A stretch of DNA of 20,000 nt from an uncultured virus (IMG/VR IMGVR_UViG_3300042328_001905). Its lineage: Duplodnaviria; Heunggongvirae; Uroviricota; Caudoviricetes. Shown here piece after piece: positions 1,449 through 16,959 of the stretch; the first letter of the stretch is position 1, and each line of letters opens with the position of its first letter. A model generated the notes under the pieces. It did not search any database. It had not been told where the DNA came from and saw only the letters and a list, made by a program, of their open reading frames with translations. The DNA is taken from IMG/VR virus record IMGVR_UViG_3300042328_001905; one strand, given 5' to 3'. Made by a program: the position numbers and the translations under genes.

Positions 1449-1527
1449 AAATAGATCGCGGTATCCCCATACCCATCTACTCTAAACATTTTTCACACAA
1501 TCAGGAGACTGTAATGTCCAGCACAGA

Positions 1528-1535
1528 TATTTATA
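1528..1535 (-). promoter_or_regulatory. Antisense T4-type late promoter inside HNH codons 5-8
   Basis: The plus strand reads TATTTATA, which is TATAAATA on the minus strand, pointing at the exonuclease. Confidence 0.55.
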
Positions 1536-1915
1536 TCGAAACCCTCAAACAAATTTCAATACATAATAAATATTTTTTGTGGTATATTAATATAATCAAT
1601 AATGCCATTGCGAGAAAAGAAAAAATAGTTTTTAATTACAAAGAAAAACATCATATATTACCTAAATCATTTAAACTGGGAGGAGAAACTGATAAATCGA
1701 ATATTGTTATCTTAACAGCAAGAGAACATTATATATGCCATTTATTATTAATTAAATTTTCTAAATCTTCGTATAAAACAAAAATGTATAGTGCATTATG
1801 GTGCATGGTTAATGGATCAAATATAAAAAGAAATCCACAAAGAAATTTTAAAATAAATTCTTATGTATATACCGATTTAAAATTAAATTTATCAAAAATT
1901 CGATCAGATAACATT

Positions 1916-1992
1916 AAAGGAGATAAAAACCCAAATAAATCGAAAGAAAGAAGGAAAATTTTATCGACTCTAATGAAAGGAGATAAAAACCC
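1916..1992 (+). repeat. 17-bp exact direct repeat AAAGGAGATAAAAACCC at a 60-bp period (KGDKNP)
   Basis: Copies at 1916-1932 and 1976-1992. Confidence 0.85.
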
Positions 1993-2340
1993 CATGAAAG
2001 GAAAACATCACACTGAATGCAGTAAACGAAAAATATCTATTGCAACATCTGGAGAAAATAATCCATTTTTTGGAAAAAATCATACACAAGAATCTTTAGA
2101 AAAAATGAGAAACGCAAAAAAACCTCCGCAAACCCAAGAACACAAAAATAAATGTAGATCAACTAGGTTAAAAACATTTTATTTTTTATCTCCATTTAAC
2201 GAAATCGTAGAAATAAAAGATTTAAAATTATATTGCAAAGAAAATAATTTACAATATAATTCTATGCTAAAAGTTAACAGAGGAGAACAAAATAATTATA
2301 AAGGGTGGATTAAAGCATCTCACCCGTAATATTAAAACTA

Positions 2341-3071: not shown

Positions 3072-3106
3072 AAAAACCCGCATTACCAATTTTTTGGTTA
3101 GCGGGT
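3072..3106 (-). terminator. Intrinsic terminator-like hairpin upstream of phoH
   Basis: The minus strand reads ACCCGC-TA-ACCAA...TTGGT-AAT-GCGGGT followed by TTTT. Confidence 0.6.
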
Positions 3107-3134
3107 CTAGTGATTTTATTCTAAAGTGTACAAC

Positions 3135-3398: not shown

Positions 3399-3437
3399 AA
3401 ATGTATTTTTAAATTGTAATAGAATTATTTATCAATT

Positions 3438-3752
3438 TTATAAATTCGCAACATACTCTTTATAAGCTGTTGTTCGTTTATCAATATTCCCATTCGGTAA
3501 TCTAGGTAGATCTTCTGGATAATCGCTTGTATCTGGTTTAGAAGTTGCTGCAATATAGTGAGAAACTGTTGGCTGTACTTGCGGTTCAAATTTTTGTTTA
3601 AAACTTTCAAATGATTCAGCTAAAACTAAAAACGATTCTTTACTTAGATGAACAATTGTTTCATTATTATAGGAAGCAACAGCATATAAGATATTGTTTT
3701 CATTAATTAAAACTTCTGCTCCGTTGTGATTTTTCGATTTTACTGTTATCAT
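3438..3752 (-). CDS. Hypothetical protein with FlbD-like N-terminal pattern
   Basis: GAGG SD and its own promoter. Pattern MI.....NG....IN..NI........T.V.L......L.ES.E. Confidence 0.6.
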   Translation of the reverse strand: MITVKSKNHNGAEVLINENNILYAVASYNNETIVHLSKESFLVLAESFESFKQKFEPQVQPTVSHYIAATSKPDTSDYPEDLPRLPNGNIDKRTTAYKEYVANL

Positions 3753-3770
3753 AATACCTCGTAATATTTT

Positions 3771-3799
3771 ATTTTACTATATAGAATATAAATAGTCAA
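3771..3799 (-). promoter_or_regulatory. sigma70 promoter driving the left arm
   Basis: TTGACT (3799-3794), 17 bp, TAAAAT (3776-3771). Confidence 0.7.
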
Positions 3800-3842
3800 G
3801 TACAATTTAGTGCTTGACTAAAAATTGTTTTTAGTATATAGT
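3787..3842 (+). promoter_or_regulatory. Late promoter plus sigma70 promoter facing the non-coding structured region
   Basis: TATAAATA at 3787-3794; TTGACT (3814-3819), 17 bp, TATAGT (3837-3842). Confidence 0.7.
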
Positions 3843-3849
3843 AAAGAAA

Positions 3850-4150
3850 ATGTGTCTGTATAAAGGTTGATACGCCGACTGATATCGTATTGATAACCTA
3901 TTCACCATAAAAGTGTGTAGAATAGCTCTGTCTAAGAAAAAAAGAGGTAAAGACACCACCTCGTTACTTCTAGGAAACTAGATGAAATTATCAATCACTC
4001 CAAACAAGAGATGATCCAATTAGGCGCAGGATCTTTAAAATCGCTACAGGTGTGGAAAGCAGCAGAACCAATCTTGGGTTGATAATGATAAAATACCTGT
4101 CTTATTCTAAAAAAATGAATTTGGGCTCCGGATAGCCTTATTCAACCTTA
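3850..4150 (+). ncRNA. Candidate structured non-coding RNA, family unknown
   Basis: No track ORF, upstream promoters, multiple local stems and an 8-bp end-to-end pairing (3863-3870 with 4142-4149). Confidence 0.45.
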
Positions 4151-4171
4151 AAAAAGATAAATATAAAAATG

Positions 4172-4241
4172 CGCTTCCGAAGGAAGCGATGCGAGCGAAG
4201 CGAAGCATTAAATTAGTTCCCTTCGGGAACCCGCTTCGCGG
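4172..4241. repeat. Cluster of GC-rich hairpins with GAA triloops on both strands
   Basis: CGCTTCC-GAA-GGAAGCG, overlapping GCGAAGC x2, GTTCCC-TTC-GGGAAC and CCGC-TTC-GCGG. Confidence 0.85.
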
Positions 4242-4248
4242 AAATCTA

Positions 4249-4277
4249 TTGACGTAAATTGAATTTCATAATACAAT
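4249..4277 (+). promoter_or_regulatory. sigma70 promoter
   Basis: TTGACG (4249-4254), 17 bp, TACAAT (4272-4277). Confidence 0.7.
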
Positions 4278-4302
4278 AAATAAAATTAAAAGGATGTTAA
4301 TT

Positions 4303-4461
4303 ATGGATAGACAAAAAATTATTGTTGCCTTAGAAACTTTAAGGGATTATAATAGATGGAGAAGAGGGCAGCTAAAAGTGATGCCCAACGCAACATTAAT
4401 AGGAGAATCAATTGAATTAGTGATTGATTTAATATCAACAGAAATCTTAAATAAAAAATAA
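4303..4461 (+). CDS. Small phage hypothetical protein (52 aa)
   Basis: Not in the track. AAGGA SD; translates MDRQKIIVALETLRDYNRWRRGQLKVMPNATLIGESIELVIDLISTEILNKK; abuts the next ATG. Confidence 0.7.
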   Translation: MDRQKIIVALETLRDYNRWRRGQLKVMPNATLIGESIELVIDLISTEILNKK

Positions 4462-4462
4462 T

Positions 4463-4885
4463 ATGATCAAGAACGTTTATGAAATTTTAAAAGAATTTGA
4501 AGGTGCTAAAACCGATCAACAACGAAAACAAATTCTTGAACAAAATAATATCTATTACTTTAAACAAGTATTACAATATACATTTAATCCAAATTATCAA
4601 TTCTACATTAAAGAATTTCCAACAGAATATATCAAACCCGATACTTTTCCTGGAATTCGATTAGCTGGTCTTGAGTCAGAACTTCGTAGAGTTTATCTTT
4701 TCTTAAAAGGTGATCCAACAGCGGATACATTAACAGAACAAAAACGTAATGTTCTTCTATTACAACTTTTAGAATCATTTGAACCTGAAGAAGCAGTTGT
4801 TTTCGTCAACATGATGAAAAAAGACCTTCAAATCCCAGGATTAACAGAATCTTTAGTCAAAGAAGTTTTTCCAGAATTATTTTAA
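4463..4885 (+). CDS. Conserved T4-like phage hypothetical protein
   Basis: N-terminal VYEIL, central 'L..E.RR.Y.F' and 'LQLLES..PEEA......KKDL' pattern typical of T4-like genomes. Confidence 0.7.
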   Translation: MIKNVYEILKEFEGAKTDQQRKQILEQNNIYYFKQVLQYTFNPNYQFYIKEFPTEYIKPDTFPGIRLAGLESELRRVYLFLKGDPTADTLTEQKRNVLLLQLLESFEPEEAVVFVNMMKKDLQIPGLTESLVKEVFPELF

Positions 4886-7900: not shown

Positions 7901-8184
7901 ATATAAAATTAACTGAAAATGATATAATTAATTTATTATTCAGATTTGAATATTTACAAGAATCAGTATTTGATCAAATAAATTCTTCAATCTTAAATTT
8001 AACAGAATTTAAATGTAAATTTAAACTTAAATTTTATTCTAAACCATTTATATCATATGGTGTATTATCATTTAATAAATGTTTAAATAATAGATCTATT
8101 ATTTTAGAATTTTCTGATACCGAATTAACATATTTAAAAATTATGGATATACAAACAAATAAAATTTTATTGGAGATAAAATGA
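7897..8184 (+). CDS. Hypothetical protein
   Basis: ATGA-coupled on both sides. Confidence 0.55.
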   Translation: MNIKLTENDIINLLFRFEYLQESVFDQINSSILNLTEFKCKFKLKFYSKPFISYGVLSFNKCLNNRSIILEFSDTELTYLKIMDIQTNKILLEIK

Positions 8185-8798
8185 AATCTTTTAAATTATT
8201 TCATGAAATGTCTATAAATGTTGGTGATGTTAAAATGGATTTAGCCACAAAACATGATCAACAAATTCATTTTAAAAAAAGTCGAAATTATCCTATTATG
8301 GATAATTTAAATAATAATGTTAAAAAACATGTTTTTAAAAATAAAAATATAACAAAATATTATACTAATGATCATGATTCAGGAAAAACTTTATATAAAA
8401 GCGAATTTCATGAACATAATCCCACAAAATTTATTCCATTCAAACATCAAGAACAGACATCTGTTGAAAGAATATCTACAAAATTATTACCGAAAAATTA
8501 TGCATTGCATGAAACATTAAATCATCTACATAATTCTAATTTACCTTTAATTTCTTCAACTTACCAAACCCCATCAGGTCATAATATGTGGAAGAAATTA
8601 TCTCATAAAGCATTGGAAACTGGTCATCATGTTTATTATCACGATGGATCTAAGTTACATAAAACTACATCTGAGAATATAGAAAATCATCTACATTCAT
8701 ATTTTGACCCAGGAACTAATTTTGATTCTTCTGGTAATTTGATTGATCCATTAGATTTCGAACATAAACATATAATTATATCTAAACATAAACTATGA
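8181..8798 (+). CDS. His-rich protein, paralogue of 10612-11238; possible internal head protein
   Basis: GGAG SD; MKSFKLFHE N-terminus; shares PFKHQEQT, GHNMW.KL.HKAL and VYYHDGS with the paralogue. Confidence 0.7.
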   Translation: MKSFKLFHEMSINVGDVKMDLATKHDQQIHFKKSRNYPIMDNLNNNVKKHVFKNKNITKYYTNDHDSGKTLYKSEFHEHNPTKFIPFKHQEQTSVERISTKLLPKNYALHETLNHLHNSNLPLISSTYQTPSGHNMWKKLSHKALETGHHVYYHDGSKLHKTTSENIENHLHSYFDPGTNFDSSGNLIDPLDFEHKHIIISKHKL

Positions 8799-10288: not shown

Positions 10289-10615
10289 ATGCAACAACAA
10301 TATACAGTATCTACAGGGATGGATACATATCAAGCAGCAAGTTTAATTCCTTGGTATGATATCCTAACTGATGAATTTATTGAATTTATGCAAAATTGTG
10401 TATTTGAAGATATTTCTTTAGATTTAGATGACAATTTAGGTTATTATTTATGGGATTTATTTCAGCATAGAATGTGGATAAAATCTCAAATATCTGGTTG
10501 GATATGTAATAATGGTAGAAGATTAGAATGGGATAGTAAATCTAAAAAAATGACTAATATAAAAATCTATAATATTATAGATAACCAAAAATATCTTTTA
10601 TTGGAGTTAAAATGA
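10289..10615 (+). CDS. Hypothetical protein
   Basis: Track ORF 10244-10615; the likely start MQQQY lies just after the upstream stop. Confidence 0.55.
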   Translation: MQQQYTVSTGMDTYQAASLIPWYDILTDEFIEFMQNCVFEDISLDLDDNLGYYLWDLFQHRMWIKSQISGWICNNGRRLEWDSKSKKMTNIKIYNIIDNQKYLLLELK

Positions 10616-11238
10616 AATCTTATTGGGATTTTATTGAAGAAATGGCTCGAAATATAGGAAATCACCCTTATTCGAGATTAAATAATGATAGAGAATTTCG
10701 GTTTGAGAAGTATAAAACTAATTCAAGTTATCCTATTTATCAATATGATACAGGCGATCAAAATGTTAATGTGACTAAACATATTGATAATAATGGTACT
10801 ATTTATTATTCAACCAATGATAATTCATCAAAAGAAATTATACATTATTCAAATATTGAAACGCATAAACCTACAGCTAAATTACCGTTTAAACATCAAG
10901 AACAAACAATGGTTGAACGAATAAAAGATAATAGATTACCGAAAGAATATGCTACAAATTTTATCTATAACCATTTTAAATCAAGTAATTTACCTTTAAG
11001 AAGTTCTGATACACAATATAGAACTGGGCATAATATGTGGAGAAAATTAGCTCATAAAGCTTTAGATGATGGTTATCGTGTTTATTATCACGACGGATCG
11101 CAATTACATAAATCTAATAAAATGAATGTTGATAAACATTTAGATTCTTCTTTTGGTGTAGAAACTAGAATTAGAGGTAACGCATTACCTCCAGATTATG
11201 AACAACGACATATTATTTTATCAAAAAAGGAATTATAG
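10612..11238 (+). CDS. Paralogue of 8181-8798; possible internal head protein
   Basis: GGAG SD; MKSYWDFIEE N-terminus; shared motifs with 8181-8798. Confidence 0.7.
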   Translation: MKSYWDFIEEMARNIGNHPYSRLNNDREFRFEKYKTNSSYPIYQYDTGDQNVNVTKHIDNNGTIYYSTNDNSSKEIIHYSNIETHKPTAKLPFKHQEQTMVERIKDNRLPKEYATNFIYNHFKSSNLPLRSSDTQYRTGHNMWRKLAHKALDDGYRVYYHDGSQLHKSNKMNVDKHLDSSFGVETRIRGNALPPDYEQRHIILSKKEL

Positions 11239-11239
11239 A

Positions 11240-12091
11240 ATGAATTATTTAATTATAGATTTAAATCAGGTTGTGATTAGTGGATTACAATCTCAAGTTA
11301 AATCTAACAAAATAAATGTTTTGAATAAAGATTTATGTAGACATTTAGTTCTTAATTCAATTAGAGCTATTGTCTACAAATTTAAACGAGATTATCCTAA
11401 CGTAATTATCGCAGCAGATTCTAGAAAATATTGGAGAAAAGAAGTATTTCCTTTCTACAAAGCAGGTAGAAAAAAAGCTCGCGAAAAATCAACACTAGAT
11501 TGGACTTTAATTTTTGAAGTTTTGGATGAAGTTCGTACTGATTTAATTAATATTTTTCCATATAAAGTTATTTTAGTTGATAGAGCTGAGGCTGACGATA
11601 TTATTGGTACTCTTGTTCCTAGATTATCTGCTCACGGTAATGTTTTGATTGCTAGTTCTGATGGAGACTTTAAGCAATTACACAAATATGGTAATGTTAA
11701 ACAGTATAATCCTATGTTGGGAATATATGTTACTTCGCCTAATCCAGAATTAGAATTAAAAGAAAAAATCTTAACAGGTGATAGTGGAGATGGTATCCCT
11801 TCTTGTTTGTCTAATGATAATGTTTTGGTGGAAGGTATCAGGCAAAAGCCATTAACGGCTAAGAAAAAAGCTGAATTGTTATCGCAAGATTTTAATAATC
11901 CTGATATTGAGTTTTATAGAAACATTCAACGCAATAAATTGTTAATTGATTTGACTATGACCCCACAGGATATTAAAGATAAAATTGTTGAGGAATTGGA
12001 ATCTGACCAAACTGGTTCTAAACAATTGGTAATGAAGTATTTTATTGAAAAAAGGTTAAATAGATTATTGGAGTGTATTGATGAATTTTAA
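11240..12091 (+). CDS. rnh: T4-type RNase H (5'-3' flap exonuclease)
   Basis: IIDLNQ, YWRK..FPFYKAGRK, EADDIIG, SSDGDFKQL and GDSGDGIP motifs; AAGGA SD before MNYLIID. Confidence 0.92.
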   Translation: MNYLIIDLNQVVISGLQSQVKSNKINVLNKDLCRHLVLNSIRAIVYKFKRDYPNVIIAADSRKYWRKEVFPFYKAGRKKAREKSTLDWTLIFEVLDEVRTDLINIFPYKVILVDRAEADDIIGTLVPRLSAHGNVLIASSDGDFKQLHKYGNVKQYNPMLGIYVTSPNPELELKEKILTGDSGDGIPSCLSNDNVLVEGIRQKPLTAKKKAELLSQDFNNPDIEFYRNIQRNKLLIDLTMTPQDIKDKIVEELESDQTGSKQLVMKYFIEKRLNRLLECIDEF

Positions 12092-12233
12092 TGACATTGA
12101 ATTAGAAGAAACAATTGGTGATATTATAGATAATGTTGCTGATATATTTGGTACTGTAGATGATTCTTTAGTGGAAAAACTGCGCGATATTGCTCTTGAA
12201 TTTGCGTCCGATTTTGATCGCGATTATTATTAA
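12081..12233 (+). CDS. Very acidic 50-aa protein
   Basis: Not in the track. GGAG SD; translates MNFNDIELEETIGDIIDNVADIFGTVDDSLVEKLRDIALEFASDFDRDYY. Confidence 0.65.
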   Translation: MNFNDIELEETIGDIIDNVADIFGTVDDSLVEKLRDIALEFASDFDRDYY

Positions 12234-12553
12234 TTTTTATAATAATTACAAAATAATTGTATCTCTTTATCTGTGAGATCATTTTTAGCTCGATTGGCTT
12301 TGACTGAAATAATTTCTATGTTATCTATTTCATATCCTTTCGAGCTATCTATTCTATCGAAACTATAACTATCGTCTTGTGCTGCTCCACGATGCCATTT
12401 TAAAGGTATTCCCAACACAGGACATGTTATAGGAAAACTTAAATTATTTAACTCTGGAATTGTTAACGTAAATTCTATTTTTCTACGTTTAGCTGACTGT
12501 TTAAGTCGTTGATAAATTTCCCGAGTTTCTGGTGGTTTTATTCTACAATTCAT
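12230..12553 (-). CDS. Small HNH-like (His-Me finger) endonuclease-fold protein
   Basis: AKRRKIEF.L, CPVLG and SFDRIDSSKGY..DN...IS..AN.AK motifs. Confidence 0.75.
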   Translation of the reverse strand: MNCRIKPPETREIYQRLKQSAKRRKIEFTLTIPELNNLSFPITCPVLGIPLKWHRGAAQDDSYSFDRIDSSKGYEIDNIEIISVKANRAKNDLTDKEIQLFCNYYKN

Positions 12554-16206: not shown

Positions 16207-16959
16207 ATGGCTGCTACATCTAATACTATTAAAGAAACTGTTACAGAAACACCATTGTTAAATAAAAGAAATTTAACATTAGGTATGTTGTTATATTTAA
16301 CATTTTATTCATTTATTCGTTGGTACGAAGGGGTTTATGGTTGGTCAGCTGGTCTCGACTCATTCGCTCCAGAATTCGAAACATACTGGATGAACATGTT
16401 GTATATTGAAATTGTTGCAGAAGTGTTATTGTTCGCGGGTATTAATGGTTATATTTGGAAAACTCGTGATCGTAAAATGATGTCAATTATTCCGCGTGAA
16501 GAGTTGCGTAGACATTTTACTCATTGGACATGGTTGGTTTGCTACGGCTGGGCTATCTACTGGGGTGCTAGTTACTTCACAGAGCAAGACGGTACATGGC
16601 ACCAAACTATTGTTCGTGATACTGACTTTACTCCAAGTCATATTATTGAATTCTATTTGAGTTACCCAATCTATATCATCACTGGTACAGCTAGTTTTAT
16701 GTATGCAAAAACAAGATTGCCTACTTATCAACAAGGTTTACATTTAATGTATCTTATTGCTGTAATTGGTCCTTTCATGATCTTACCAAATGTTGGTTTA
16801 AATGAATGGGGTCACACATTCTGGTTTATGGAAGAGTTGTTTGTTGCTCCATTACACTATGGATTTGTGTTCTTTGGTTGGGCTGCTCTAGCTGTAATGG
16901 GTGTTGTGAACACCGAAGTAATGGCAATTTCTAAATTATTGAAAAATGATTTAGCATAA
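16207..16959 (+). CDS. pmoC: Particulate methane monooxygenase subunit C (phage auxiliary metabolic gene)
   Basis: RWYEGVYGWSAGLDSFAPEFETYWMN, YFTEQDGTWHQT, DFTPSHIIEFYLSYP and GLNEWGHTFWFMEELFVAPLHYGFV; 250 aa; AAGGAG SD. Confidence 0.97.
   Translation: MAATSNTIKETVTETPLLNKRNLTLGMLLYLTFYSFIRWYEGVYGWSAGLDSFAPEFETYWMNMLYIEIVAEVLLFAGINGYIWKTRDRKMMSIIPREELRRHFTHWTWLVCYGWAIYWGASYFTEQDGTWHQTIVRDTDFTPSHIIEFYLSYPIYIITGTASFMYAKTRLPTYQQGLHLMYLIAVIGPFMILPNVGLNEWGHTFWFMEELFVAPLHYGFVFFGWAALAVMGVVNTEVMAISKLLKNDLA

What the first reader, a model, noticed from the sequence alone, without database searches (positions are those of the whole stretch)
3850..4150. Promoter-driven ~300-nt structured non-coding RNA candidate
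Seen: in an otherwise gene-dense window, this ORF-free stretch sits behind both a late and a sigma70 promoter, while the next gene has its own promoter (4249). Pairings: AAGGTTGA/TCAACCTT closing the ends (3863-3870/4142-4149); ATTGATAA/TTATCAAT (3889-3896/3988-3995); CTATTC/GAATAG (3898-3903/3920-3925); GAGGT/ACCTC (3944-3948/3958-3962), whose loop AGACAC (3951-3956) complements GTGTCT (3852-3857) as a possible pseudoknot; TCTAG-GAAA-CTAGA (3969-3982); GATCC/GGATC (4013-4033); ACAGGT/ACCTGT (4046-4100); GGCT/AGCC within TGAAT/ATTCA (4116-4144). GGTTGATA occurs twice (3865, 4077), allowing alternative folds. I cannot match it to tRNA, tmRNA, RNase P or group I/II intron cores. Inference: an uncharacterised phage ncRNA or a replication primer RNA.
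Basis: partly seen in the sequence, partly recalled or inferred. Interest (0 to 1): 0.75.

Follow-up and report, generated by a model that had tools for sequence, protein, structure and literature searches.

The report
Phage structured RNA, likely replication origin
This stretch of a methane-oxidiser phage is a real, conserved folded RNA gene from a wide family in large freshwater phages and small integrated elements, and because it often sits in front of DNA hairpins it may be the RNA that starts their DNA replication.

Summary
One reader stem (3889/3988) is wrong. The RNA (about 3850-4150, + strand, behind a conserved sigma70-type promoter) is a compact member of a 300-450-nt family found at 59 loci of viral contigs up to 354 kb. 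A model built without the window's lineage scores best exactly here (24.7 bits, next 9). The orphan Rfam motif Polynucleobacter-1 turns out to be the 5' domain of a related longer RNA, carried by small integrase and clamp-loader elements in Polynucleobacter chromosomes. The window, its syntenic relatives and these elements share one layout: promoter, RNA ending in a covarying direct repeat with switchable pairing, A-rich tract, then GA-GC-GNA-GC-GA DNA mini-hairpins. The hairpin motif is found at only 9 of 42 wide-family loci. Neighbouring genes vary and no reverse transcriptase was found. Best reading (about 0.45): a structured primer/R-loop RNA at a replication origin, working like ColE1 RNA II or T4 oriF. 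GC-skew tests were mixed and expression is untested. Rivals: trans-acting scaffold RNA, self-processing ribozyme, packaging signal.

The parts
3814..3842 (+). sigma70-type promoter (-35 TTGACT, -10 TATAGT); predicted start near 3849-3850
   Evidence: same boxes at the same distance in L100 and L168; transcription start inferred
3793..3820 (.). inverted repeat formed by back-to-back -35 boxes of the two divergent promoters; not part of the RNA
   Evidence: minus-strand promoter 3799-3771; similar repeat in L100
3850..4150 (+). structured non-coding RNA, compact member of the family
3852..3956 (+). pseudoknot PK1: 3852-3857 pairs with the H3 loop 3951-3956
   Evidence: 6 of 6 pairs kept in 3 lineages, two G-U-compatible one-sided changes, none two-sided
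3863..3891 (+). family 5' motif AAGGTTG..GCCG and hairpin H1 (3869-3874/3886-3891)
   Evidence: 2 pairs with two-sided change; same motif opens the wide-family RNAs
3898..3925 (+). helix H2, likely the counterpart of the CUAYC/GAYG helix of Polynucleobacter-1
   Evidence: 2 pairs with two-sided change; correspondence judged by eye
3944..3982 (+). hairpins H3 (3944-3962) and H4 (3969-3982)
   Evidence: H3: 2 two-sided and 1 one-sided change; H4 stem invariant with variable loop
4000..4103 (+). near-invariant core: H5 (4013-4033), AAAATCG linker, H6 (4046-4100) with inner helix 4053-4055/4068-4070 around a 12-nt purine-rich loop
   Evidence: 93% identical to L100 against 66-76% for flanking genes; aligned helix by helix by model R1
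4099..4143 (+). 3' direct repeat (4099-4107 and 4135-4143) around hairpin 4124-4137; the H5 loop can pair with either copy
   Evidence: both copies change together in L100; same three-way covariation in the wide family
4149..4169 (+). A-rich tract, candidate unwinding element
   Evidence: aligned to the A-rich tract of the Polynucleobacter elements by model R2; function inferred
4172..4241 (.). cluster of DNA mini-hairpins with GNA loops, two on + then two on - around an AT-rich centre
   Evidence: GCGAAGC 3 times against 0.34 expected; 5 mini-hairpins here, at most 1 in any other 91-nt window; kept in L100, L143, L149, L154
4249..4277 (+). separate sigma70-type promoter of the downstream genes
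   Evidence: a second TTGAC promoter also follows the cluster in L143 and L149

Best explanation
Promoter, RNA, A-rich tract and mini-hairpins form one cis-acting replication-origin module. Shown: the + strand folds into a conserved multi-helix structure with a pseudoknot and a switchable 3' end, and the module occurs in many gene contexts. Inferred: host RNA polymerase transcribes the RNA early. Its fold, through the H5 loop pairing with repeat 1 or repeat 2, sets whether the 3' end stays hybridised to the template in the A-rich tract as an R-loop. The displaced strand folds into stable GNA mini-hairpins that hold the bubble open and may load helicase or primase. Phage RNase H (encoded at 11198-12091) trims the RNA to a primer. 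Small integrated elements carry the same module to borrow a helper phage's replisome.
For: Layout promoter-RNA-A tract-GNA hairpins is kept at the syntenic slot of four phage lineages, and both RNA and hairpins are missing together in L011/L157. A second unit lies just past uvsY-uvsW-like genes in G003 (names from my reading of the proteins). The same layout recurs in chromosomal Polynucleobacter-1 loci, whose conserved core holds a tyrosine recombinase (13 of 13), a phage clamp-loader-like ATPase (12 of 13) and an integrase (10 of 13). The hairpin motif lies downstream on the RNA strand in 9 of 42 wide-family loci against 0 of 42 control stretches. One exact core copy per contig in 16 of 16. 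No fixed neighbour gene. Cumulative GC-skew minimum is 0.9 kb and 1.1 kb from the unit in G002 and G004. T4 oriF/oriG are promoter plus AT-rich unwinding element with an R-loop primer, near strand switches (PMC3016281, passages).
Against: No transcript, R-loop or replication data. Nine jumbo contigs show no skew inflection at the RNA. The orientation-corrected test supported an origin at the unit in 4 of 12 contigs at 32 of 1000 permutations or fewer (G003, G019, G012, G010), was borderline in G002 and G004 (81 and 106) and null or opposite in 6. Raw skew follows gene direction. The strict hairpin motif was not found at 33 of 42 wide-family loci. GAGCGAAGCGA repeats are common in unrelated repeat elements. 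T4 R-loop origins need no RNA structure (PMC3016281). Two conserved element proteins remain unannotated and could be a replication initiator of their own.
Confidence: 0.45

Rival explanations
1. A trans-acting, abundant phage RNA that scaffolds or sequesters a protein (host RNA polymerase, a ribosomal or defence factor), like other orphan large ornate RNAs; the hairpins are only a boundary.
For: Own promoter, one copy, variable neighbours; near-invariant unpaired loops; RNA points with the majority of genes in 9 of 9 jumbo contigs.
Against: The A-rich tract and 3-nt-loop hairpins, a DNA-type fold, travel with it into unrelated chromosomal elements; hairpins point both ways around an AT-rich centre.
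Confidence: 0.25
2. A self-processing ribozyme: one catalytic core docks two copies of a substrate (the covarying repeats) in turn, to cut out or circularise the piece between them.
For: H5 loop pairs with either copy; repeats covary letter for letter; invariant core typical of catalytic RNAs.
Against: No match to any Rfam ribozyme, intron or RNase P model; the unit is intergenic, with no interrupted gene.
Confidence: 0.12
3. A packaging or concatemer-processing signal shared by helper phage and satellite, with the RNA acting like a packaging RNA.
For: Satellite-like elements need helper capsids as well as replication; inverted hairpin cluster.
Against: Early-type promoter; no terminase among the annotated neighbours; the conserved satellite gene is a clamp-loader-like ATPase.
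Confidence: 0.1
4. A cis-regulatory leader or riboswitch for the downstream gene, or a template RNA for a reverse transcriptase.
For: Switchable 3' pairing; Weinberg 2010 marked Polynucleobacter-1 as possibly cis-regulatory (table passage).
Against: Downstream genes are unrelated and often on the opposite strand; the window's next gene has its own promoter; RVT_1 found in 0 of 18 contigs, 0 of 3 near-complete.
Confidence: 0.08

Closest known systems
Polynucleobacter-1 RNA motif (Rfam RF01718; Weinberg et al. 2010, PMC2864571)
   Same: Wide-family RNAs carry its CACUAYC/GAYG helix and score weakly against it (22-25 bits at 4 loci). Genuine RF01718 loci continue into the same 3' repeat module, A-rich tract and mini-hairpins.
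   Different: RF01718 models 141 nt only. The window gives no RF01718 hit. The window has a different 5' end and a shorter, roughly 300-nt RNA.
T4 R-loop origins oriF (ori uvsY) and oriG
   Same: Promoter followed by an AT-rich tract; near a switch of gene direction; phage RNase H present.
   Different: T4 origins are about 100 bp, use middle-mode promoters and need no specific RNA sequence (PMC3016281 passages); here the RNA is 300-450 nt with conserved fold.
ColE1 RNA II preprimer (recalled, not tested)
   Same: Long promoter-driven RNA with alternative pairings, ending next to hairpins on the displaced strand.
   Different: No sequence or Rfam match; no antisense RNA I seen; phage and integrated elements, not a plasmid.
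Orphan large ornate RNAs GOLLD, ROOL, OLE, raiA (search listings only)
   Same: Long, highly paired, pseudoknotted, function open.
   Different: No Rfam hit to any of them; fixed link to a DNA hairpin cluster.
d(GCGNAGC) mini-hairpins (PMC13037366, search listing only)
   Same: Same GCGAAGC core, three times in the cluster.
   Different: Here tied to an upstream RNA gene; the motif is also common in unrelated repeat elements.

Membership tests
Polynucleobacter-1 (RF01718) | Score at or above gathering threshold 37 bits | tested here: not met
   No hit in the window at E<=5 or in 3800-4300 at E<=10; wide-family loci 22-25 bits
Polynucleobacter-1 (RF01718) | CACUAYC/GAYG helix | tested here: inconclusive
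   Clear in the wide family; window H2 is similar by eye only
Wide phage RNA family defined here (model R1) | 3' core H5-linker-H6 with inner helix | tested here: met
   Best hit in 20 kb at 4011-4177, 24.7 bits, rough E 1.6e-4, next 9 bits; a coding stretch of L011 reached 17.4 bits, so scores under about 18 do not discriminate
Wide phage RNA family defined here (model R1) | 5' AAGG..GCC hairpin about 220-360 nt before the core | tested here: met
   Window 3863-3891, at a shorter distance (about 190 nt); motif invariant in alignment A5; not part of model R1
Wide phage RNA family defined here (model R1) | 3' direct repeat with three-way pairing to the H5 loop | tested here: met
   in the window one pair of the loop helix is a T-T mismatch, perfect in L100
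T4-type R-loop origin | Promoter plus downstream AT-rich unwinding element | tested here: met
   (sequence only)
T4-type R-loop origin | Persistent R-loop that primes leading-strand synthesis | not testable with these tools
   needs experiment
T4-type R-loop origin | Strand-bias switch at the site | tested here: inconclusive
   support in some contigs, none in six
tRNA, tmRNA, RNase P, SRP, 6S, group I/II introns, small ribozymes | Covariance-model or ARAGORN match | tested here: not met
Retron or DRT template RNA | Reverse transcriptase gene beside or in the same genome | tested here: not met
   PF00078 in 0 of 18 contigs, most incomplete

The most novel reading that the evidence does not exclude
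Large freshwater T4-like and jumbo phages start replication from an ornate 300-450-nt primer RNA whose repeat switch hands pairing from RNA to DNA, and a class of tiny chromosomal satellites carries the same RNA origin plus a clamp-loader subunit to hijack the helper replisome. This would give the orphan Polynucleobacter-1 motif its function.
Probability: 0.35. Interest if true: 0.9.

Novelty: new variant of a known kind. Interest (0 to 1): 0.74.

Why it matters
Most large structured bacterial and phage RNAs have no known job, and origins of jumbo phages are largely unmapped. This family comes with a direct test: Polynucleobacter genomes, several as single long contigs, carry the whole unit in a small element. 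If it is an origin, it is a ColE1-like RNA-folding origin in tailed phages and a marker for an undescribed satellite class. If not, it is still a wide, strongly covarying RNA family that Rfam models only in part.

Tried and rejected
Fold energy alone: not significant. Rfam on the window and 7 syntenic loci: only chance-level hits. blastn against 50,697 GenBank phages: only short chance matches for the window, none for a wide-family member. Loci of the flanking genes: of 15 DUF6433 loci and 79 FmdB-like loci only the near-identical ones held the RNA by nhmmer. 16-mer scan: 34 of 38 hits were chance. Metagenome 18-mer scan: 3 of 42 real. Sequencing runs: no RNA holder listed. Contigs of 4 DNA runs: no substitution in 3850-4150, one 1-nt deletion in the A run, 8 substitutions elsewhere in 3400-4500; too few to count. 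Pseudogene reading: stops in all six frames. SRP, RNase P, hairpin-ribozyme and tmRNA likenesses recalled from memory were dropped for lack of any model match. The RNAs of the L143 and L149 types fill the same slot and have the hairpin cluster, but R1 does not hit them; their membership is open. Earlier scan notes: nothing found. Atlas on two conserved element proteins: hypothetical only. The G002 co-orientation row used an unverified strand and is not used. Literature: 'Polynucleobacter-1' occurs in 1 paper, 'DUF6641' in 0; searches listed nothing describing this unit. The Fremin 2023 phage RNA catalogue (PMC10690425) had 0 hits for four core strings in 6 supplements, but its two large files and one further file could not be searched, so fragments may be catalogued there. 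Additional file 1 and the gene-context PDF of Weinberg 2010 could not be read.

Full report
Setting. The window is a T4-like phage segment: PhoH-like, exonuclease, topoisomerase II, RNase H and a PmoC/AmoC gene. The finding lies in a 540-bp gap between divergent genes, 3753-4293. No whole genome is held. The pmoC-phage paper (PMC7674155; I saw passages only) mentions no such RNA in the passages returned for six terms.

Observation. All quoted motifs are at the stated places. Folding energy alone is unremarkable (z -0.74), Rfam and ARAGORN are blank, and the late-promoter box is at chance level. The case therefore rests on homologues.

Close homologues. An 18-mer scan of viral contigs gave 7 loci: 3 near-identical, 3 chance, and L100. 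A metagenome scan gave 42 loci: 2 near-identical and L168, cut at its 3' end. Against L100 the core 4000-4103 is 93% identical, the RNA 80%, flanking genes 66-76% and spacers 62-64%. On the three-way alignment, 41 pairs in H1-H6 and the pseudoknot are canonical in 123 of 123 cells, 7 pairs change on both sides, 1 of 500 shuffles matches this and slid registers pair 32-43%. My own null gave 0 of 20,000. One-sided changes are G-U compatible on the + strand, which fits the promoter direction.

Syntenic slot. A scan with the upstream gene gave 18 loci. The L143, L149 and L154 lineages, about 40% identical in that protein, all show promoter, an ORF-poor stretch of several hundred bases, then GAGCGAAGCG motifs on + and their inverse on - around an AT-rich centre. 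L011/L157 lacks both RNA and cluster. G003 holds a second unit on the minus strand after genes I read as uvsY and uvsW, opening with the window's 5' motif.

Wide family. A scan for that 5' motif gave 37 loci; L343/L358 and L361 came from other phages. Their shared 16-mer gave 62 loci; I dropped 3 as chance and 1 as too short, leaving 43 distinct cores, 42 aligned after removing one near-duplicate. Contigs reach 354 kb. On 29 full-length members, 36 of 61 predicted pairs have two-sided changes. The H5 loop covaries with two different 3' segments, one right after H6 and one in the 3' hairpin, and a flanking direct repeat changes letter for letter in both copies. Model R1, built from the 3' core without the window's lineage, scores best at 4011-4177 (24.7 bits, next 9) and aligns H5, H6 and the inner helix. 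L154 scores 23.3 and L100 17.8, but a coding stretch reached 17.4, and the L143 and L149 types were missed. Membership rests on this hit plus the independent 5' motif and the repeat. Members were collected by an exact 16-mer, so its invariance is built in.

Link to a known motif. Four wide-family loci hit Polynucleobacter-1 below threshold. RF01718 passes its cut-off in 17 of 151 genomes of that genus. In 11 of 12 such loci R1 gives a weak same-strand hit just downstream (10.7-21.1 bits). The alignment shows the RNA continuing to about 420 nt with the same direct repeat, an A-rich tract and a GAGCG..AAGCGA hairpin. Model R2 from these loci scores best in the window at 4113-4229, on the tract and hairpin only (17.7 bits, next 13.3). 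All 13 neighbourhoods examined share DUF6641, a tyrosine recombinase and two unannotated proteins; 12 have a phage clamp-loader-like ATPase and 10 an integrase (29 of 105 protein clusters were scanned). I read these as satellite-like elements; that is inference. From Weinberg 2010 I saw table passages and the alignment file; some of its rows already run on to about 300 nt.

Mechanism. Neighbours vary in identity and strand, which argues against a leader. There is one exact core per contig in 16 of 16, with 4 two-mismatch extras not examined, and no RVT_1. What travels with the RNA is a DNA-type feature: 3-nt GNA loops, found on the RNA strand 146-162 nt past the core in 9 of 42 loci against 0 of 42 controls, and 18 against 7 of 42 by a looser rule. 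T4 oriF and oriG are a promoter plus AT-rich element where the transcript forms an R-loop primer trimmed by RNase H, and need the clamp loader in vitro (PMC3016281, passages). ColE1 RNA II, recalled, adds fold-dependent switching. I therefore put an RNA-primed origin first at about 0.45. Against it, skew is mixed: minima within about 1 kb of the unit in G002 and G004, monotonic curves in nine jumbo contigs, and an orientation-corrected test that favours the site in 4 of 12 contigs, is borderline in 2 and null or opposite in 6. Nothing here shows transcription or priming.

Verdict. Real structured RNA: about 0.95. Member of the wide family: about 0.85. Not a member of RF01718 by score, but the same superfamily. 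Function open, origin most likely. No description of the full unit was found in the searches named under Tried and rejected; supplements that I could not read may list fragments.

Noticed in passing
L556-L568 (genomes G034-G175), within 6 kb of the RF01718 match: A conserved small integrated element: DUF6641, the RNA unit, tyrosine recombinase, two unknown proteins, clamp-loader-like ATPase, integrase; candidate satellite of T4-like phages.
   Followed up: partly
L143, L144, L151, L153 (between the 104-aa gene and DUF6433): A different 450-490-nt structured RNA in the same slot, with its own covarying 5'-to-loop pseudoknot and a Polynucleobacter-1-like helix seen by eye; not hit by model R1.
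   Followed up: partly
L325:5580-6260 (G003): Second RNA unit in one contig, with a tandem duplication inside its mini-hairpin cluster.
   Followed up: partly
L024:5499-5832, L377:2365-2811, L401:2577-2906: Permuted (two-piece) tmRNA genes in phage contigs, two of them about 1 kb from the family RNA.
   Followed up: no
L005:617-673 and 3072-3123: Short stem-closed elements among phage tRNA genes, only sub-threshold Rfam matches.
   Followed up: no
window 16207-16959: Intact PmoC/AmoC gene, marking a pmoC-phage.
   Followed up: partly
window 1514-2329 and 12230-12553: Homing or HNH-type endonuclease genes on the strand opposite their neighbours.
   Followed up: no
window 8181-8798 and 10612-11238: Two similar-looking histidine-rich proteins without PHROG match, flanking the topoisomerase genes.
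   Followed up: no
G009-G020 contigs: Genes co-oriented with the RNA have lower fourfold-site GC skew than opposite genes in 9 of 9 jumbo contigs, a one-directional bias of unexplained sign.
   Followed up: partly
L542, L543: The family core also sits on short contigs of two bacterial MAGs, probably binned phage DNA.
   Followed up: partly
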